In this document: one piece after another, positions 36,279 through 56,259 of the stretch
Layout of the letters: every line of letters begins with the position of its first letter
Numbering within the stretch: the first letter of the stretch is position 1
Origin: a virus
Lineage: Duplodnaviria; Caudoviricetes
Length of the DNA: 64,000 bases
Virus record (IMG/VR): IMGVR_UViG_3300050159_000048
Strand: one strand, 5' to 3'
The notes under the pieces: model-generated
Databases searched by the model: none
The model's input: the letters and a program-made list of their open reading frames with translations, nothing else
Told to the model about the DNA's origin: nothing
Program-made: the position numbers and the translations under genes

Positions 36279-36307
36279 ATTATCGCTCCACCCCAACTAA
36301 AGGTCAA
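36279..36307 (-). promoter_or_regulatory. Sigma70-type promoter (possibly leaderless primase transcript)
   Basis: TTGACC-17-GATAAT then 6 nt to ATG 36272. Confidence 0.6.
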
Positions 36308-37053
36308 GCCTTCTTCGCAGGGGCTTTCTTCGCAGGGGCTTTCTTTGCGGGTGTCGGTTTTTGACTTTGAGCAATAGCAGCTTCAATTGCGTCAGCAATC
36401 GCTTGCTCGGCCTTTTGCAGCTCAGCAGCTTCTTCATTCATCTTTTCCACCATCTTTTCCAGACGGGTACGAATCTCAGGAGACTGCATCCACTTGTCCT
36501 CACCGCGAGCGATCCGTTCGTACTCCTCTTCAGTAAGGAAGGGAATGTAGATGTCTTTTGCGAGGGAATTGAACCAGCTAACCGTCGCCTCCAGTTCTGC
36601 AACAAGCTCATTACCCTTACCGATCAGGCCACTGTTGAAGTTGTGGAACATCATCATGCAGTGATCATTCACAACCATCTCGTCACCAGCAAGGAAGATC
36701 AGTGTTCCGAGGGAGTATGCTACACCCTCTAGCACAGTAACTACCTTAGCTTGGCTGTTTTGGATAGCGTTGATGATTTGGACACCAGTGTCCAAATGTC
36801 CGCCTGGTGTGTTCAAATGAATGAAGATCACGTCTGAAGGGCCAGCGGCACTGATTCGATAAATCATGTCCACGTAGTGTTCAGCTTCGCCGATCGTTTT
36901 GCTGATGTAGAAATGCGCATGCTGAGCCGTATACGTCTGCTCAAAATGGCGGTAGGGCTTTTTCTCGAGTTCAGCCAGCGGAAACTTGAGTTCCTGCTGT
37001 TCCTCGTCGTCTCCAGGTGTATTACGGCGTGCCGCTGCGTACTTGTATTGCAT
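36304..37053 (-). CDS. clpP: ClpP-like serine protease with PAKKA-repeat tail
   Basis: LNTPGG, AYSLG (Ser), MMFH (His), EDKWM (Asp); GGAGG RBS; start MQYKY. Confidence 0.85.
   Translation of the reverse strand: MQYKYAAARRNTPGDDEEQQELKFPLAELEKKPYRHFEQTYTAQHAHFYISKTIGEAEHYVDMIYRISAAGPSDVIFIHLNTPGGHLDTGVQIINAIQNSQAKVVTVLEGVAYSLGTLIFLAGDEMVVNDHCMMMFHNFNSGLIGKGNELVAELEATVSWFNSLAKDIYIPFLTEEEYERIARGEDKWMQSPEIRTRLEKMVEKMNEEAAELQKAEQAIADAIEAAIAQSQKPTPAKKAPAKKAPAKKA
36311..36351 (-). repeat. 15 nt tandem repeat encoding PAKKA x3
   Basis: TTCTTCGCAGGGGCT x2 plus a partial degenerate copy. Confidence 0.9.
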
Positions 37054-37115
37054 TCTCGTATTCCCTCCATAAGGTGCAGGTATATACGAGCGAAATGTTG
37101 GGGCGGAGAAACCCA

Positions 37116-37149
37116 AATAACGAGAGCACCCGAAGGTGCTCTCGTTATT
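37116..37149 (-). terminator. Strong hairpin/terminator (UUCG loop on minus strand)
   Basis: 15 bp perfect stem AATAACGAGAGCACC / GGTGCTCTCGTTATT. Confidence 0.75.
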
Positions 37150-37244
37150 AGTTTGGTAATAAGGTTAATCACACCTCATGCCGGTATGTTATTAAGCTGC
37201 AAGGGCACCTTTTTATCAAGGAGCGGATTACACACAGCAAATGG

Positions 37245-37272
37245 AAAGAGGTGGATGTTAGTCCACCTCTTT
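37245..37272 (-). terminator. Terminator after the tmRNA coding piece
   Basis: AAAGAGGTGGA-6 nt-TCCACCTCTTT. Confidence 0.75.
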
Positions 37273-37556
37273 AATCATGTTGGGTTACAAGGTTGATCAG
37301 ACCCCGTGGAGTTTACGCCGCTAGGCGCATTTCTCCGTAAAATGCATCGTTAGCATTTAGTTGATTTGCTTGATTTACGGTCATCGCCTACCGTGCTGTC
37401 CACTTCAATACTCATCGCCCAGTCGAAACCATGACATCCCCATTACAAATCACACCAATTGGTGTGATTTGTGGTGGAGATGGCGGGAGTCGAACCCGCG
37501 TCCTGAACTCTTTCTATCCACTTCTGTTCCTACTTTTGTAGGATGTTCACAGCAAT
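37273..37556 (-). ncRNA. ssrA: Circularly permuted (two-piece) tmRNA gene; tag ANDAFYGEMRLAA
   Basis: Minus strand: acceptor piece ending GACGCGGGTTCGACTCCCGCCATCTCCACCA (CCA at 37472), 30 nt intervening sequence, then coding piece starting GGGGATGTCATGGTTTCGAC (37441); acceptor stem GGGGAUG/CAUCUCC has G3.U70; tag frame 37354-37313. Outer ends approximate. Confidence 0.93.
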
Positions 37557-37561
37557 ACGTC

Positions 37562-37567
37562 TATTTA
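37562..37567 (-). promoter_or_regulatory. TAAATA late promoter motif upstream of tmRNA
   Basis: gTAAATAg just before the acceptor piece. Confidence 0.55.
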
Positions 37568-37587
37568 CTCATATTTTGAGGGAAACG

Positions 37588-37797
37588 TCAACTGTCACAA
37601 TCTAGCGATTCTTCGTCGTCGTGATCAATAATGTGTCTTAGTTGTTGCTTACCTATGTTGCGCTCGCGCTTATGGATCGCATGCTTGATCTTTTTGCGAG
37701 CCTCACGGACTTCTTTCTTATTGGATTGTGTTTCCACCTGACCCAACAAATCGTACGTCTCCTTCAAGTGCTGAGTTCTTTTGTCTTGTTGCTTCAT
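37588..37797 (-). CDS. Small basic/acidic hypothetical protein
   Basis: Start MKQQD after GAGG RBS. Confidence 0.6.
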   Translation of the reverse strand: MKQQDKRTQHLKETYDLLGQVETQSNKKEVREARKKIKHAIHKRERNIGKQQLRHIIDHDDEESLDCDS

Positions 37798-38126: not shown

Positions 38127-38711
38127 TTATGTAGTAAGGATACGTACGTCAGCACGGTTTATGTCTTGATGAATGGACAACCGGCTGCAAGCCAATGCCT
38201 CCTCACGAGTTGCGCGGAGAGCATACCATATTCCGTTCTCACGCTTACGAAACCCGGTACCGTGTTGGTATACACCGTCTGCAGCGTTGTAGTATTGAGG
38301 CGGGCTAGGAATGCTGTGATGCTTGGTAAGTGTCCATCCTTGATCAGTATCAGCAGTGTTCCACGTAAAGAAAACAGTCACTGTATTTGGGTCAACAACC
38401 TCAATGCGATGAGCGGTTTTGTTGGTATGGAAAATGACAGAACCTACGTTGTGACGGGTGTATTTGAGCGAGCCGTTGCGGCTCATTGTAGCTTCTGTAT
38501 AGCCACCTCTCACAACAACGGACACGTAGTGGAACGGGTGGGTGTGGAGGAACGGGGTGCGATCAGCTGTCTTGATTTCGTGTATGCGAACGCGAAGCCG
38601 ACCAATGGAGCCCACATGCCAGCGATGCAGATACCCTGGCATGTGGTTGTAAGGTTTGGTGATCTTACGACTTAGTCTTCGCAGCCCAGTCCAAATCCAG
38701 GTCTTCGCCAT
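38127..38711 (-). CDS. Cupin-fold hypothetical protein (start uncertain)
   Basis: LHTHPF...GGYTE...AHRIE cupin motifs. Confidence 0.7.
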   Translation of the reverse strand: MAKTWIWTGLRRLSRKITKPYNHMPGYLHRWHVGSIGRLRVRIHEIKTADRTPFLHTHPFHYVSVVVRGGYTEATMSRNGSLKYTRHNVGSVIFHTNKTAHRIEVVDPNTVTVFFTWNTADTDQGWTLTKHHSIPSPPQYYNAADGVYQHGTGFRKRENGIWYALRATREEALACSRLSIHQDINRADVRILTT

Positions 38712-39192
38712 ACTCATGATTGATCTTGAGTTTGCTGATAGCGTCCGCAATATCTGGTAGGGTTTTTTCGTCCAAGTCGCCAATGTCATACGAGAGTGTG
38801 ACGTGCGTTTTGTATTCGGGGAAGTCGTAGGTGGCATCATGCTCGTCCATCAATTCCTTATGGCGATCGTTTAGCTCCTCACATTTGAACTTCATTACCA
38901 AGCAGCGCTTTGGTTCTTCGTCACGAAGCTTTCCTTTTGACTCCCACACCTCCAACCCAACAGGAGTACCGATCCAAGCTGGATCAATGTCACCCTGTGG
39001 CTCATAATCTGGACAGTGTTTGCGACTGTACAGAACTGTGCAGTGCAGTTTTTCTGCTGGCACACCGTTTGGGATCTCGTTGTTCTCAATATACTTGCGA
39101 ATGTTGTTGACGGTACTCTCGTCAAACTTCACCGCTGCATATGTACCGGGTTCTGGGCTGTCTTCTTTTTCGAGGAGTTCAAATAGTTTCAT
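38665..39192 (-). CDS. acb1: Anti-CBASS nuclease Acb1 (T4 57B-like 2H phosphodiesterase)
   Basis: YAAVKF, VPAEKLHCTVLYSR, LEVW, ATYDFPEYKTHVTLSY, EDLDLDWA match my recollection of T4 gp57B. Confidence 0.88.
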   Translation of the reverse strand: MKLFELLEKEDSPEPGTYAAVKFDESTVNNIRKYIENNEIPNGVPAEKLHCTVLYSRKHCPDYEPQGDIDPAWIGTPVGLEVWESKGKLRDEEPKRCLVMKFKCEELNDRHKELMDEHDATYDFPEYKTHVTLSYDIGDLDEKTLPDIADAISKLKINHEYGEDLDLDWAAKTKS

Positions 39193-39206: not shown

Positions 39207-40313
39207 TCACACCGGTTCAAATCCAGTGCGGCCCTCTTTCAATGTGTTAGGGATCACGGGTTGTCCATACATCCAGTGTCTGGTTGTATTGACGTGGCCT
39301 TTGCGAACGTATTTACCGACCATTTGTTTGAACTGACTGAAGTGGAAAGGCTCGTCAACACGAATGACATAGCCTTCAACCTCGCCTCTGGCGGCTTCGC
39401 GTTGCTGCTTCAGGGTGCTATATGATTGCTCAATCTTGGCTCGATCATACTCGCCCCAGTAAATCACCGGGCATGGAGTGACGCCAAGCAGTTCATACCA
39501 CTGCAGCGTGTCTTGCCAGGTCAGGATGTGATTTGTGTCATCCCACATGGCAAAACCATACGCATATGTTTCGAGGTCAACATATGTAATCGAGTGCTTT
39601 GCGTACATATTTTCGACGCTGAGCCTCCAACCTTCTGGAATGTCGTGTTGGAACTGAGAGGCGAACGCACGGATCCAATCACGAGACGGGTGTCCACCAG
39701 AAGTGACGGAGCGAGCATGCATGTAATCGTTGTAGATTGACGTGTTTTCACCGTCCAATTTCTCCATCACGACAACCTTTCGGCCTTCGAAGATGGAAAC
39801 GTCTGGCATCATACGATCGTCATCGTGCATGCCCGGAGACCACGGCAAATGGAAGGTTCGGGGGTATTTGACGTACTTGACAAAATCCCCAATCACGCCA
39901 CCTTCAGTCAGAACCTTTTGGACGCTCTCGTCGTTAAACAGTTCGCCCCGCAGCCTGCGATTATCGTCAAGGATTACATTACCCCACTTATCGTATACGG
40001 TGTCGGTGTACATATGGGGAGGGAGGATTGGTTTGGTGATGCCGGCATATTCCCGAATTTGCTCAACAGTGATCTGAGTTCGTTCACACGCAAGGTGATG
40101 CTCGGAACATACGGATGCACCGTTGTTCAAGTGATATCCCTGACAATCACCAAACAACCTTCGCTCAATTATATGATGGGCATCAACCGCTGGTGCCCCA
40201 CACACAACGCAGCGGTAAGCGTCACGTTGGAATGTATGCTCACGAAACTGATCACGTGTCAGTCGTTGATTGGTGGTGCAGCACGAGCTTGCACCAGCTG
40301 ATAAATTGCTCAT
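39207..40313 (-). CDS. ATP-dependent RNA ligase with N-terminal HNH-like Zn domain
   Basis: CVVCG...DAHHI...CSEHH domain; KYPRTFHL, EKLDGEN, EGYVIR, KYVR nucleotidyltransferase motifs; start uncertain. Confidence 0.85.
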   Translation of the reverse strand: MSNLSAGASSCCTTNQRLTRDQFREHTFQRDAYRCVVCGAPAVDAHHIIERRLFGDCQGYHLNNGASVCSEHHLACERTQITVEQIREYAGITKPILPPHMYTDTVYDKWGNVILDDNRRLRGELFNDESVQKVLTEGGVIGDFVKYVKYPRTFHLPWSPGMHDDDRMMPDVSIFEGRKVVVMEKLDGENTSIYNDYMHARSVTSGGHPSRDWIRAFASQFQHDIPEGWRLSVENMYAKHSITYVDLETYAYGFAMWDDTNHILTWQDTLQWYELLGVTPCPVIYWGEYDRAKIEQSYSTLKQQREAARGEVEGYVIRVDEPFHFSQFKQMVGKYVRKGHVNTTRHWMYGQPVIPNTLKEGRTGFEPV

Positions 40314-53430: not shown

Positions 53431-55626
53431 ATGCCAAATCCGTCATATGTCAAGTCCATGAATGTTAACTTCAGCGATAGGAAACAAGATGTAGTACAAA
53501 TTGTGTCATCGCCAAACATTGTTGCACTTTGGTATTCGATGAGTGATGCTGATAGGGCCAATCTTGCAACATTGGCTACAGCCAACGGAGGTTCTCTACC
53601 ACTACCGTCAATGGCGCTCGCACATTCAACCCTAATGCCGAACGGAATGAGTTGGTGGCAGACGTATCAAGGTATGTGCAAAACCATTCCCGCAAGCCTC
53701 AAGTCGTCTGTTGGATCAGCCGCTGATGGAATGAGTTCGGCTGATGTTTCTAAAATCCAGTCGTTGGTGTCAGGGGATGAATTTCGTGAGTACCCGCTGA
53801 GACAGTACGGTGATGCGCGCAGGGCCACCCGCTTTAAGGCCGCGGGCGCCATGGACATCATTTCGACCGAGCTGCGCATCACCGGCTACACGTTCACCGA
53901 CTCGGACGTCGGCAAGACCGCGGCGATCAAGGGCCCCGGCGTTGGCTCCCCAACCTCAGACTTTGCTGTCGTCGCCAATGACGGCGTGCTGATCGGCACC
54001 ATCCTGTCGGTCAGTGGTGGCAAGGCATACCTGTCGGTGGCGGCCACCCAGACGGCATCCAACTGCGAAGTGATCTTCGGGTGGCCGTGCGACGACGCGT
54101 TCGTGGCCGCCGTGGCCAAGTGCCGTGCCGACTACGTAGCCGACGGCGTGCCGGGCAAGGTCATCATTCCCGGTGGTGACTACATGGTCACTGGCCGCCT
54201 GCCGGTCAGTTCGGGCGTGTCGATGGGAGGCTGCCGACGCGACGGCACGAGTGTCTACGTGTGCAAGGTCGTCGCCAACGCCGACGACTCGAACACGGCG
54301 CCCTGGATTGCTCGCGAAAGCTCCTTTGCAGTCGGCGGGTACTACGACTGCGTGTGCCTGGAGAATTTCAGCCTGATCGGCACCTTCTTCGCATCCAGCG
54401 GGCCCTACGGCAGCGACATGAAGATGATCTCGATGGATGGCACGAACCAGTCGTTTGTGCGGCACATGCGGATCGTGGACAACCCGAGCACGGCGCTGGG
54501 CTACGATAAGTCCATCGCCTGCGAGCTGGCCCACAACCTCATCATCCGCCCCGCACGGCTGGCAAGGCCCAGCACCAGCGGCAACTCGGGCGGCGCGGGC
54601 GGCTCCGGCATCGGTATCGCGGTCGGCGATACCGAGCTGTCGATGCACGTCCACCACAACACCATCATCGGCACACTGGCGGCGGGCATGGGCAACTTGG
54701 CCGCAGGCGCGGTCGGCCGCAGCGGTATCAACATCGAGGCGTCAGCCGAGACGCCTAACCCGCCCGCATTCGGCGGTTCCGGCCTCATCATCGAAGCCAA
54801 CATCGTCCGCGGCTTCTTCAACGGCGTCGTGGACAGCGGCGCGCAGGGTACGCGCATCGTTCACAACGTCATCAGCCAGTGCGTCCACGGGATCAAGGCG
54901 GGCAGCAACGGGGTGACATACGGCCGCGTAGCGCGCGACACGCTGATCGCACACAACGATATCAGCAACTTGTTCACCTGGAATGCCCAGTACAGCGCGG
55001 GCATCATGGTCAACAGCGCCGTTGGCGCGACTGCCAACGGTCAGTCTGGTATCGCGCTCGCCTATGGTCGCTCGCGCGTGCTGGACAACACCATCCGCGC
55101 CGCCGCTGGCGGGTACGGAATCGCGCTGATCGTCAACGCGGGAAAGCCGCTGCTCGGACTTACGGTGCGCGGCAACCTGGTGTCCGACTGCGACCTGTCG
55201 GGCATCCGGTTGTTCGGTGGGTTCATCGACTTGGAGCTTACTGACAACATGATGATCTCCAACGGCCGCGCTGCCACCGCGGGGAACAAGGCTCCGATCC
55301 GGTTCGATACCGGCACCACCTGGGTGGGCGGCAAGTACTCGGGCAATCACTACCTGGACCCCGAGTCGAGCCCGACGCAGGACGCGGCGCCGACCGTCAA
55401 CAACGCAACGCTCACGAACGTGTGGGCAGCCGAAAAGGTGTTGGCGCTCGCCAGCAACGCGGTCGCCAACTTGCCGGCCGCTTCGGCTGCGTACAAGGGA
55501 TTCCGCGCGACCGTGACGGATGCGTCCACGGCGTACACGTCGGCCAACGTTGGCGTCACGGTCGCGGCCGGCGGCGCCAACACCGCGCCTGTGTTCTGCA
55601 ACGGCACCAACTGGGTGATCGGCTGA
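53431..55626 (+). CDS. Pectate-lyase-like beta-helix protein (tail spike / depolymerase candidate)
   Basis: DDAFVAAV...KVIIPGGDYMV, repeated N-x-I beta-helix coils, C-terminal V..LP.A....ATVTDA...GG....PVFCNGTNWVIG tail motif. Confidence 0.75.
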   Translation: MPNPSYVKSMNVNFSDRKQDVVQIVSSPNIVALWYSMSDADRANLATLATANGGSLPLPSMALAHSTLMPNGMSWWQTYQGMCKTIPASLKSSVGSAADGMSSADVSKIQSLVSGDEFREYPLRQYGDARRATRFKAAGAMDIISTELRITGYTFTDSDVGKTAAIKGPGVGSPTSDFAVVANDGVLIGTILSVSGGKAYLSVAATQTASNCEVIFGWPCDDAFVAAVAKCRADYVADGVPGKVIIPGGDYMVTGRLPVSSGVSMGGCRRDGTSVYVCKVVANADDSNTAPWIARESSFAVGGYYDCVCLENFSLIGTFFASSGPYGSDMKMISMDGTNQSFVRHMRIVDNPSTALGYDKSIACELAHNLIIRPARLARPSTSGNSGGAGGSGIGIAVGDTELSMHVHHNTIIGTLAAGMGNLAAGAVGRSGINIEASAETPNPPAFGGSGLIIEANIVRGFFNGVVDSGAQGTRIVHNVISQCVHGIKAGSNGVTYGRVARDTLIAHNDISNLFTWNAQYSAGIMVNSAVGATANGQSGIALAYGRSRVLDNTIRAAAGGYGIALIVNAGKPLLGLTVRGNLVSDCDLSGIRLFGGFIDLELTDNMMISNGRAATAGNKAPIRFDTGTTWVGGKYSGNHYLDPESSPTQDAAPTVNNATLTNVWAAEKVLALASNAVANLPAASAAYKGFRATVTDASTAYTSANVGVTVAAGGANTAPVFCNGTNWVIG

Positions 55627-55686
55627 TTCCCATCCCCCGCCAGTAGATATTGAAAAGAAACGCTAACTAACACAAGGAGATTGTGC

Positions 55687-56259
55687 ATGGCTTATACAAA
55701 CGAAGACTATAAACGCGTTGCAGAACAACTAAAGTGCGAACCAGCAGCGGTTGCCGCAGTTGCTGCCGTGGAATCTGCTGGCAGTGGTTTTGATCCCGAG
55801 GGATTTCCAAAGACCCTATTCGAAGGACATTGGTTCTACAAGCTAACAAACGGTAAGTATGCTCAATCTCATCCCGATCTGTGCTATCCGAAGTGGACCA
55901 AGCAGTTCTACGGAAAGACCTGGCGTGAGGAGAAGGATCGTCTTAATCGAGCGATTGCTCTAGATAGGAATGCGGCATTGATGTCTGCGTCGTGGGGTTC
56001 GTTCCAAATCATGGGATACAACTTCGCTAAGTGTGGGTACAAAACCGTGCAGCAGTTCGTTAATGATATGTGTAAGGGCGACGGTGCTCAACTTGATGCG
56101 TTTGCAGAGTTTGTTCACGAATCCGGAATGGCTGACGAGCTTCAAGATAAGCGGTGGGCTGATTTTGCGCGCCTGTATAATGGCCCTGGATACGCACAAA
56201 ACAGCTACGATAAGAAGCTAGCGGCAGCATATGCAAAAGCCCTACAAACCCTAGGTTGA
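55687..56259 (+). CDS. Endolysin, N-acetylmuramidase (DUF3380 family)
   Basis: AVAAVESAGSGF, LFEGH.F, SASWG.FQIMGYN, WADFARLYNGPGY; AAGGAG RBS. Confidence 0.93.
   Translation: MAYTNEDYKRVAEQLKCEPAAVAAVAAVESAGSGFDPEGFPKTLFEGHWFYKLTNGKYAQSHPDLCYPKWTKQFYGKTWREEKDRLNRAIALDRNAALMSASWGSFQIMGYNFAKCGYKTVQQFVNDMCKGDGAQLDAFAEFVHESGMADELQDKRWADFARLYNGPGYAQNSYDKKLAAAYAKALQTLG

What the first reader, a model, noticed from the sequence alone, without database searches (positions are those of the whole stretch)
37273..37567. Phage-encoded circularly permuted two-piece tmRNA
Seen (minus strand), in order: TAAATA promoter; acceptor piece ending in a T-arm and CAUCUCC-ACCA (37472); a 30 nt intervening sequence; then the 5' end GGGGAUGUCAUGGUUUCGAC (37441). 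The acceptor stem has the alanine G3.U70 pair, and CUGGGC/GUUCAG gives helix 2a. The tag frame GCT AAC GAT GCA TTT TAC GGA GAA ATG CGC CTA GCG GCG TAA encodes ANDAFYGEMRLAA, followed by one pseudoknot-like segment and a terminator. The spacer, with the terminal A of CCA, is a perfect 28 bp palindrome (37445-37472). Established: permuted tmRNAs are known from alphaproteobacteria, some betaproteobacteria and cyanobacteria. Standard tRNA/tmRNA finders often miss them or call a pseudo-tRNA. Inference: a compact (~280 nt) phage trans-translation RNA, possibly resisting host anti-phage RNases. I cannot confirm whether permuted phage tmRNAs are already catalogued.
Basis: partly seen in the sequence, partly recalled or inferred. 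Interest (0 to 1): 0.9.

Follow-up and report, generated by a model that had tools for sequence, protein, structure and literature searches.

The report
Phage two-piece tmRNA gene, known kind
A large uncultured phage from leaf litter carries a genuine, complete "two-piece" ribosome-rescue RNA (tmRNA), but standard tools find it at once and such phage tmRNAs are already catalogued, so it is a new example of a known kind.

Summary
ARAGORN calls a permuted tmRNA at 37222-37564 (-) with exactly the tag ANDAFYGEMRLAA. Rfam matches tmRNA_permuted (125 bits, cut-off 47) and beta_tmRNA (117 bits, cut-off 84). In an alignment of 18 beta-type permuted tmRNAs, the acceptor stem (invariant G3.U70), T arm, P2, PK1 and the post-ORF pseudoknot are all kept through compensatory changes. 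Tag codons differ from the nearest relatives at 6 synonymous and 1 non-synonymous positions.

The host record is a 183 kb IMG/VR virus contig (about 52% complete) with 52 tRNA genes, a GOLLD RNA and T4-like/jumbo-phage replication genes. No SmpB lies in the part held.

The 28-nt palindromic spacer is the perfect form of a hairpin common in beta-type precursors, cellular and viral.

The kind is not new. Buchholz et al. 2022 list 53 two-piece tmRNAs in phage genomes, including XacN1 and DLP_6, which I confirmed are beta-type.

Particular to this copy:
- about 60% identity to its nearest relatives
- a roughly 21-nt extra hairpin in P2
- a 13-aa tag family shared with unrelated viral contigs
- a ClpP-fold protease gene directly downstream, an adjacency not conserved elsewhere

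Expression, processing and tagging are untested. The RNase-resistance idea has no support.

The parts
37562..37591 (-). Putative promoter: TTGACG (37591-37586), 18-nt spacer, TAAATA (37567-37562)
   Evidence: Read from the sequence. TAAATA sits 8 nt upstream of the first helix, where relatives have TATAAT-like boxes 8-9 nt upstream. The sigma-70 scan does not call it.
37472..37555 (-). Acceptor piece, about 84 nt. It comprises the distal P2 strand GCUGU (37553-37549), the extra hairpin, the P2a strand GUUCAG (37508-37503), the T arm GCGGG/UUCGACU/CCCGC (37499-37483), the acceptor 3' strand CAUCUCC (37482-37476) and ACCA (37475-37472).
   Evidence: ARAGORN and Rfam. Covariation: T arm 90/90 cells paired, P2a 107/108. 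The 5' end is inferred from the promoter position and was not measured.
37528..37543 (-). Window-specific inserted hairpin UCCUAC-AAAA-GUAGGA, inside the 5' strand of helix P2
   Evidence: The cofold keeps it as a side branch. The 17 other aligned tmRNAs lack it: their 5' strand is about 36 nt, against about 57 nt here. It is unique in the genome.
37442..37471 (-). 30-nt intervening spacer. Together with A37472 it forms a perfect 28-nt palindrome (37472-37445), a 12-14 bp hairpin that ends 3 nt before G1.
   Evidence: Fold energy is -17.6 kcal/mol. A comparable hairpin occurs in most of the 18 beta-type precursors, with G.U pairs, ending 3 nt before G1 in most.
37245..37441 (-). Coding piece, about 197 nt. 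It comprises the acceptor 5' strand GGGGAUG (37441-37435), the UGGUUUCGAC element, the P2 3' strands CUGGGC (37422-37417) and ACAGC (37399-37395), PK1, the tag frame, a pseudoknot and the terminal hairpin.
   Evidence: ARAGORN and Rfam. The acceptor stem pairs in 126/126 cells and G3.U70 is invariant.
37368..37393 (-). Pseudoknot PK1, upstream of the resume codon. Stem 1 is CGGU/ACCG. Stem 2 is GC..UGA paired with UCA..GC.
   Evidence: Stem 1 covaries (CGGU:ACCG, CGAU:AUCG, CAGU:ACUG) and so does stem 2 (UGA:UCA against CCG:CGG). The same motif occurs in cellular tmRNAs of Advenella, Pelistega and Brackiella.
37313..37354 (-). Tag reading frame: resume codon GCU, 13 codons (ANDAFYGEMRLAA), then UAA
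   Evidence: ARAGORN. Against L007/L011 (ANDAFYGEDRLAA): 7 identical codons, 6 synonymous, 1 non-synonymous.
37272..37307 (-). H-type pseudoknot after the tag frame. Stem 1 is ACGGGG (37307-37302) with CCUUGU (37292-37287). Stem 2 is UGAUCA (37299-37294) with UGAUUA (37277-37272).
   Evidence: Both stems can be drawn in most of the 18 aligned sequences (S2 clearly in about 15), from very different sequences.
37246..37271 (-). Terminal hairpin: 10-bp stem, CUAACA loop, followed by a weak U tract
   Evidence: MFE fold. It aligns to the terminal hairpin of RF01850. The terminator scan does not call it.
36304..37116 (-). Context only: a ClpP-fold serine protease gene directly downstream on the same strand
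   Evidence: PF00574 E = 1.3e-15 and phrog_1827 E = 3.8e-56. It is 36% identical to the XacN1 'Clp protease', with the Ser/His/Asp motifs aligned. No NCBIfam model reaches its cut-off.

Best explanation
This is a complete, intact ssrA gene of the circularly permuted, beta-proteobacterial type, carried by a large uncultured phage.

Inferred from what is known of two-piece tmRNAs: one precursor is transcribed from about 37555. RNase P cuts 5' of G37441, and tRNA 3'-end processing trims to the encoded CCA at 37472. This removes the 30-nt spacer hairpin. An acceptor piece of about 84 nt and a coding piece of about 197 nt remain, held together by the acceptor stem and helix P2.

Also inferred: host alanyl-tRNA synthetase charges the RNA through G3.U70 and A73. 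With host SmpB and EF-Tu, it enters ribosomes stalled on broken mRNAs. Translation resumes at GCU 37354 and adds ANDAFYGEMRLAA, whose C-terminal LAA marks the product for Clp-type proteolysis.

Shown here: the gene's anatomy, its family membership, conservation of every helix, and peptide-level constraint on the tag.

The likely benefit to the phage is inference only. The tmRNA would keep ribosomes free and recycle amino acids late in infection, alongside the phage's 52 tRNA genes.
For: - ARAGORN calls a permuted tmRNA with this tag.
- RF04321 scores 125.2 bits (cut-off 47) and RF01850 scores 116.9 bits (cut-off 84).
- Covariation in 18 sequences: acceptor stem 126/126 cells paired with invariant G3.U70, T arm 90/90, P2a 107/108 including a compensatory swap specific to the window. 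PK1 and the post-ORF pseudoknot are kept through different sequences.
- Tag codons against L007/L011 differ at 6 synonymous and 1 non-synonymous positions.
- The gene lies deep inside a virus record, between phage genes on the same strand. That record has 52 tRNA genes.
- Cultured phages XacN1, DLP_6 and BUCT-ZZ01 carry the same type of gene.
- Phage two-piece tmRNAs are described in PMC9004378.
Against: - There is no expression, processing, charging or tagging evidence. No RNA run holds the gene.
- No SmpB lies in the 183 kb held, so function depends on an unidentified host's SmpB.
- The host is unknown, and its own tmRNA may be of another type.
- The promoter and terminator are not called by consensus scans.
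- The extra P2 hairpin is unique to this copy, and its effect is unknown.
Confidence: 0.85

Rival explanations
1. The RNA is mainly a decoy. It binds host SmpB, or competes with host tmRNA, to shut down or redirect host trans-translation, and does little productive tagging itself. This is what was proposed for the TLD-only molecule of mycobacteriophage DS6A.
For: - The phage has no SmpB of its own in the part held.
- PMC4131195 reports that a TLD-only phage tmRNA-like molecule strongly inhibits tmRNA.
- The tag is 3 residues longer than those of the cellular relatives.
Against: - The full mRNA-like domain is present: PK1, the resume region, an open tag frame with stop, and the downstream pseudoknot. 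All are conserved with covariation.
- The tag shows 6 synonymous against 1 non-synonymous codon change, as expected only if it is translated.
Confidence: 0.06
2. The tmRNA and the ClpP-fold protease gene directly downstream form a phage-owned tag-and-degrade module. The long phage-type tag steers tagged proteins to the phage protease.
For: - The gene at 36304-37116 is adjacent, on the same strand, and only a weak terminator separates it from the tmRNA.
- The protease keeps the Ser/His/Asp motifs.
- 12-13 aa tags recur in large phages.
Against: - The adjacency is not conserved. In XacN1 and Xoo-sp13 the Clp gene sits between DNA ligase and primase, and the tmRNA lies about 50 kb away.
- DLP_6 has the tmRNA but no such protease. 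RAS14 has the protease but no permuted tmRNA.
- Relatives with the nearest tag (L007, L011) lack a close homologue.
- The best NCBIfam match is a head-maturation-type ClpP relative, and it falls below its cut-off.
- No ClpX- or ClpA-like partner was looked for or seen.
Confidence: 0.05
3. It is a recently captured or decaying host gene with no role for the phage: a passenger or pseudogene.
For: - tmRNA genes are common integration sites, and phages can pick up fragments of them (PMC9004378).
- The gene sits on a long branch of the tree, at about 60% identity to anything else.
Against: - Both halves and all helices are intact.
- No closely similar cellular sequence was found. The nearest are about 60% identical.
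- The phage recurs with the gene in many leaf-litter metagenomes.
- The same gene type is kept in several unrelated large phages.
Confidence: 0.03
4. One reading: the two-piece form, or the spacer hairpin, protects the RNA from host anti-phage RNases.
For: None from this work. The neighbourhood does hold RNA-repair and anti-defence genes, namely an RNA ligase and Acb1.
Against: - The permuted form and the spacer hairpin are shared with ordinary cellular beta-type tmRNAs of Alcaligenaceae. They are therefore inherited features, not phage adaptations.
- The spacer is expected to be removed during maturation.
Confidence: 0.02

Closest known systems
Beta-proteobacterial permuted tmRNA (Rfam RF01850; the 'third lineage' of two-piece tmRNA), e.g. 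the ssrA genes of Advenella, Pelistega and Brackiella found here
   Same: - Gene order is acceptor piece, spacer, coding piece.
- G3.U70 acceptor stem, T arm, UGGUUUCGAC element and P2 are all present.
- The PK1 motif UAGGCGAUGACCGUAAAUCAAGCAAA is identical.
- There is a single pseudoknot after the tag frame, then a terminal hairpin.
- A spacer hairpin ends 3 nt before G1.
   Different: - It is carried by a phage.
- Overall identity is only about 56-60%.
- The tag is 13 aa (ANDAFYGEMRLAA), against the 10-aa ANDESYALAA.
- P2 has an extra hairpin (37543-37528).
- The -10 box is TAAATA in place of a TATAAT-like box.
- The terminator U tract is weak.
Permuted tmRNAs of cultured large phages: Xanthomonas jumbo phage XacN1, Stenotrophomonas phage DLP_6 and Synechococcus phage BUCT-ZZ01. 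XacN1 and DLP_6 are listed as 'Permuted' in Table S1 of PMC9004378.
   Same: - All are phage-borne and beta-type by Rfam (94-108 bits).
- Tags are long, 12-13 aa: ANANTFDYALAA, ANDDSFAPMAIAA and ANDETFSMALAA.
- The host phages carry many tRNA genes.
- XacN1 also has a GOLLD RNA, a CUA-anticodon tRNA and the Clp protease-primase gene pair.
   Different: - Sequence identity is only 45-55%.
- In those phages the gene sits in or beside the tRNA cluster. Here it lies about 26 kb from the nearest tRNA gene, among replication genes.
- XacN1 topoisomerase II is only 30% identical to the window's.
Uncultured viral contigs L007, L011 and L016 (tag ANDAFYGEDRLAA) and L004, L008 (tag ANDAFYEEFALAA) from IMG/VR
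   Same: - They carry the nearest tag peptides, 12 of 13 and 10 of 13 residues identical to the window's.
- They are beta-type permuted tmRNAs with the same PK1 motif.
   Different: - Nucleotide identity is about 57-61%.
- They lack the extra P2 hairpin.
- L007, L011 and L016 have no terminal hairpin.
- Their phages lack a topoisomerase II homologue, so they are a different phage type.
Two-piece tmRNA of marine phage Melnitz and pelagimyophages (PMC9004378)
   Same: It is a phage-encoded, circularly permuted ssrA, proposed to act early in infection in ribosome rescue and amino-acid recycling.
   Different: Melnitz's ssrA is reported as alpha-proteobacterial in origin, with a glutamine riboswitch in its 3' domain. 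The window's is beta-type, and Rfam finds no riboswitch in it.

Membership tests
tmRNA, circularly permuted form (RF04321) | Score at or above the curated gathering threshold of the covariance model | tested here: met
   125.2 bits against a cut-off of 47, E = 4.9e-24, with the full model length 1-213 matched. The own-genome search reproduces it.
tmRNA, circularly permuted form (RF04321) | Permuted gene order: the 3' acceptor half with its T arm and encoded CCA lies upstream of the 5' acceptor strand and the mRNA-like domain | tested here: met
   CCA ends at 37472 and G1 is at 37441, on the minus strand. ARAGORN labels it tmRNA*.
tmRNA (any form) | Alanine identity: a seven-pair acceptor stem with G3.U70 and discriminator A73 | tested here: met
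   GGGGAUG pairs with CAUCUCC, followed by ACCA. G3.U70 is invariant in 18/18 aligned sequences and 126/126 cells pair.
tmRNA (any form) | T arm with a GGUUCGAnUCC-type loop, and the D-loop analogue UGGUUUCGAC | tested here: met
   GCGGG-UUCGACU-CCCGC lies at 37499-37483. GGUUUCGAC is invariant in the alignment.
tmRNA (any form) | A tag reading frame that resumes on an alanine codon, ends in a hydrophobic xAA C-terminus and has an in-frame stop, under peptide-level selection | tested here: met
   The frame runs GCU...CUA GCG GCG UAA and encodes ANDAFYGEMRLAA. Against L007/L011 there are 6 synonymous and 1 non-synonymous codon differences.
Beta-type permuted tmRNA (RF01850) | Score at or above the gathering threshold, and the best-scoring model within the clan | tested here: met
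   116.9 bits against a cut-off of 84, E = 6.3e-35. This is the weakest among close relatives, which score 94-185 bits. The model skips the window's distal P2 strand because of the inserted hairpin.
Beta-type permuted tmRNA (RF01850) | Helix P2 joining the two pieces, PK1 before the tag, and one pseudoknot plus a terminal hairpin after it | tested here: met
   P2a pairs in 107/108 cells. Distal P2 is GCUGU:ACAGC. The PK1 stems covary. The post-ORF pseudoknot can be drawn in most of the 18 sequences.
tmRNA (any form) | Maturation into two pieces, alanylation, SmpB binding and tagging of non-stop products | not testable with these tools
   No RNA run holds the gene. The phage is uncultured.
tmRNA-SmpB system | An SmpB partner encoded alongside | tested here: not met
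   PF01668 finds nothing in the 183 kb record, although the control genomes ring. The record is only about 52% complete. A tmRNA gene does not need a linked SmpB to be a tmRNA, so this bears on autonomy, not on membership.

The most novel reading that the evidence does not exclude
Large phages maintain their own lineage of beta-type two-piece tmRNAs, exchanged between unrelated phages and independent of the host's tmRNA type. Their lengthened tags (ANDAFY..LAA here, 12-13 aa in XacN1, DLP_6 and BUCT-ZZ01) are tuned to change the fate of tagged proteins. They might, for example, escape the host adaptor or feed the phage's own ClpP-fold protease encoded next door. The extra P2 hairpin would then be a phage-specific handle.
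Probability: 0.1. Interest if true: 0.6.

Novelty: new member of a known kind. Interest (0 to 1): 0.25.

Why it matters
The locus adds one more well-supported case to a known pattern: very large phages carry their own translation toolkit. Here that toolkit is 52 tRNA genes, a tmRNA and a GOLLD RNA. It also shows that the beta-type two-piece tmRNA turns up in phages whose hosts are not betaproteobacteria (Xanthomonas, Stenotrophomonas, Synechococcus), although only 4 of 151 sampled Burkholderiales genomes have it.

Two practical points follow:
- GenBank records of at least two cultured phages (DLP_6 and BUCT-ZZ01) leave this gene unannotated.
- The cultured phages XacN1 and DLP_6 offer a direct way to test what a phage tmRNA with a lengthened tag does. 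The uncultured phage of this window does not.

Tried and rejected
1. **Exact-architecture scan for near-identical copies in IMG/VR.** None were found. A looser pattern gave 20 contigs.
2. **ClpP-tmRNA module.** The adjacency is absent in L007, L011, L016, L009, L019, XacN1, Xoo-sp13 and RAS14, and presence or absence of the two genes is uncoupled. I rejected it as a conserved module.
3. **SmpB in the phage.** Not found in the 183 kb held.
4. **Expression evidence.** Two run searches found only DNA holders (leaf-litter metagenomes), plus RNA runs that share a few conserved words. I did not use read laying, because contigs of DNA runs cannot show RNA ends.
5. **Consensus promoter and terminator scans.** Neither the proposed promoter nor the terminal hairpin was called.
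6. **Tree of 26 beta-type tmRNAs.** The window sits on its own long branch near the Alcaligenaceae group. The RNA is too short to resolve a donor, so I make no donor or host claim.
7. **Host inference from proteins.** Topoisomerase II matches are only 30-34% identical and spread over phages of many hosts. The Clp protease points weakly to Xanthomonas/Stenotrophomonas jumbo phages at 35-42%. The host stays unknown.
8. **The spacer palindrome as a repeated or mobile element.** It is unique in the genome.
9. **The founding paper on beta-type two-piece tmRNA (PMC516066).** It is not held. I could not check whether the spacer hairpin has already been described.
10. **MFE folding of the whole precursor.** It recovers the acceptor stem, T arm, spacer hairpin and terminal hairpin, but not the pseudoknots. 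Those rest on comparative evidence.

Full report

Yes. The T arm is followed by CAUCUCC-ACCA ending at 37472, then 30 nt of spacer. GGGGAUGUCAUGGUUUCGAC starts at 37441. The frame GCU AAC GAU GCA UUU UAC GGA GAA AUG CGC CUA GCG GCG UAA lies at 37354-37313.

ARAGORN reports one RNA gene in the whole window: a permuted tmRNA at 37222-37564 (-) with tag ANDAFYGEMRLAA. Rfam gives tmRNA_permuted RF04321 at 125.2 bits (cut-off 47, E = 4.9e-24) and beta_tmRNA RF01850 at 116.9 bits (cut-off 84, E = 6.3e-35). The stretch 37472-37445 is a perfect palindrome that folds at -17.6 kcal/mol. It occurs once in the 183 kb record.

**2. Where does it sit?**

The window is part of a 183,069-bp IMG/VR virus record that CheckV rates about 52% complete. 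The tmRNA lies deep inside it, co-oriented with phage genes.
- Downstream: a ClpP-fold protease (36304-37116), a primase and both topoisomerase II subunits.
- Upstream: an orphan ORF, a dioxygenase-like gene, Acb1, an RNA ligase, an endonuclease and DHFR.

The full record has 52 tRNA genes plus this tmRNA, and the window also holds a GOLLD RNA. The DNA recurs in many leaf-litter metagenomes. The Clp protease-primase pair is syntenic with the Xanthomonas jumbo phages XacN1 and Xoo-sp13, where a DNA ligase precedes the Clp gene. Protein identities are only 30-42%, so the phage is a distant relative at best and its host is unknown.

**3. Anatomy and comparative support**

A pattern scan of IMG/VR found 20 viral contigs with the permuted architecture. 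Nearly all are beta-type. A scan of bacterial genomes with the PK1 motif found cellular permuted tmRNAs in Advenella, Pelistega, Brackiella and some MAGs, nearly all with the tag ANDESYALAA.

I aligned 18 of these sequences (A1) and counted pairs.
- **Acceptor stem:** 126/126 cells paired, with G3.U70 invariant.
- **T arm:** 90/90, with several compensatory types.
- **P2a:** 107/108. The window has its own compensatory swap, A-U where most others have U-A.
- **PK1:** both stems covary.
- **Distal P2:** in the window, GCUGU (37553-37549) pairs with ACAGC (37399-37395). Relatives use UUGUUGU:GCAACA, GCCGU:GCGGC and similar pairs.
- **Post-ORF pseudoknot:** an H-type pseudoknot after the stop codon (ACGGGG:CCUUGU and UGAUCA:UGAUUA) can be drawn in most of the 18 sequences, from very different sequences.
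- **Terminal hairpin:** a 10-bp hairpin at 37271-37246 ends the gene.

The tag is under peptide-level constraint. Against L007/L011 (ANDAFYGEDRLAA) there are 7 identical codons, 6 synonymous changes and 1 non-synonymous change.

**4. What is particular to this copy**

- **An insertion of about 21 nt in the 5' strand of P2.** It forms the hairpin UCCUAC-AAAA-GUAGGA (37543-37528), absent from the other 17 sequences. It also explains why the Rfam alignment skips the distal P2 pairs.
- **Sequence divergence.** The gene is about 60% identical to its nearest relatives and 45% to XacN1's, and it sits on a long branch of its own.
- **A 13-residue tag.** The same family occurs in viral contigs L007, L011, L016, L004 and L008, which belong to a different phage type with no topoisomerase II. 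Tags of 12-13 residues also occur in XacN1, DLP_6 and BUCT-ZZ01, whereas the cellular relatives have 10.
- **An unusual position.** The gene lies away from the tRNA clusters, directly upstream of a ClpP-fold protease.

**5. The spacer palindrome is not special**

I folded the spacer of all 18 sequences. Most form a hairpin that starts at or within a few nucleotides of the terminal A of CCA, and in most it ends exactly 3 nt before G1. This holds for the cellular Advenella, Pelistega and Brackiella genes too. Many of the pairs are G.U, so the feature is selected at the RNA level.

The window's spacer is simply the most perfect example. I could not read the founding paper on the beta lineage, so I cannot say whether this hairpin has been described.

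**6. Promoter and terminator**

TTGACG-N18-TAAATA is present. TAAATA occupies the position of the TATAAT-like boxes of relatives, 8-9 nt upstream of the distal P2 strand. The sigma-70 scan does not call it, and the terminal hairpin's U tract is weak. The start and end of transcription are therefore inferred.

**7. How it most likely works**

By analogy with studied two-piece tmRNAs, one precursor is cut by RNase P at G1 and trimmed to the encoded CCA. The two pieces stay paired through the acceptor stem and P2. AlaRS charges the RNA, and host SmpB and EF-Tu deliver it to stalled ribosomes. The tag is added, and its LAA end directs Clp-type proteolysis.

The phage has no SmpB in the part held, so it must rely on the host's. 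None of these steps could be tested, because no RNA run holds the gene.

**8. The ClpP idea**

The neighbouring protease keeps its Ser/His/Asp motifs, which makes a tag-and-degrade module tempting. Several results count against it.
- The adjacency is absent in every relative examined.
- DLP_6 has the tmRNA without the protease, and RAS14 has the protease without a permuted tmRNA.
- The best NCBIfam match is a head-maturation-type relative, below its cut-off.

I rate this reading at about 5%.

**9. Comparison with what is known, and novelty**

Phage tmRNAs have been listed since at least 2014 (PMC4131195). Buchholz et al. 2022 (PMC9004378) describe the two-piece tmRNA of phage Melnitz and count 53 two-piece forms among 133 unique phage tmRNAs. 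Their Table S1 lists XacN1 and DLP_6 as 'Permuted'. I confirmed that XacN1, DLP_6 and BUCT-ZZ01 carry beta-type permuted genes.

The 2025 tmRNA database counts 79 phage sequences and produced the RF04321 model that detects this gene (PMC11915505). The finding is therefore a new, divergent member of a known kind, found by routine tools.

**10. Verdict**

This is a real, complete and probably functional phage-borne two-piece tmRNA of the beta type. Its features of modest interest are the extra P2 hairpin, the lengthened tag family shared across unrelated phages, and its position beside a ClpP-fold protease. No mechanism beyond ordinary trans-translation is supported.

Noticed in passing
window 63557-63991 (+); L059:2840-3253: A GOLLD RNA (RF02032, 218.8 bits, full length) lies in the window. 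Xanthomonas phage XacN1 has one too (227 bits), about 1 kb downstream of its permuted tmRNA. The two large RNAs therefore co-occur in both phages.
   Followed up: partly
G000 contig 161-56088 (outside and at the edge of the window): The 183 kb record carries 52 tRNA genes in clusters. One has a CUA anticodon, which ARAGORN calls 'Pyl' (contig 54164-54239). XacN1 and BUCT-ZZ01 also have CUA-anticodon tRNAs close to their tmRNA genes.
   Followed up: partly
L054:2962-3305 (KU682439.2) and L053:2801-3219 (ON615601.1): The GenBank records of Stenotrophomonas phage DLP_6 and Synechococcus phage BUCT-ZZ01 contain beta-type permuted tmRNA genes (tags ANDDSFAPMAIAA and ANDETFSMALAA) with no feature annotated there. 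Neither host is a betaproteobacterium.
   Followed up: yes
window 36304-37116 (-): A ClpP-fold serine protease with its Ser/His/Asp motifs kept. It is 35-42% identical to the 'Clp protease' of jumbo phages XacN1, Xoo-sp13, CM1 and RAS14, and is always followed by the primase gene. Its role (ATP-dependent protease subunit or something else) is unclear, and no NCBIfam model reaches its cut-off.
   Followed up: partly
window 38665-39192 (-) and 39207-40313 (-): An Acb1 anti-CBASS phosphodiesterase homologue (PF23474, E = 2.6e-35) sits next to an RNA ligase (phrog_24030, E = 1.7e-127). The ligase's N-terminal region also matches HNH endonuclease families.
   Followed up: no
order-level sample of 151 Burkholderiales genomes: Only 4 of 151 sampled genomes reach the beta_tmRNA cut-off. 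The beta-type permuted form is therefore a minority form even in its home order, while it recurs in phages of several host groups.
   Followed up: partly
window 54001-56000: G+C rises to 0.62, against about 0.49 elsewhere, inside the 731-aa ORF at 53431-55626 (+).
   Followed up: no
L028 (MAG labelled Crocinitomicaceae) and L040 (MAG labelled Alteromonadales): Beta-type permuted tmRNAs occur on contigs binned into non-betaproteobacterial MAGs. The possible explanations are phage contigs, mis-binning or real transfer.
   Followed up: no
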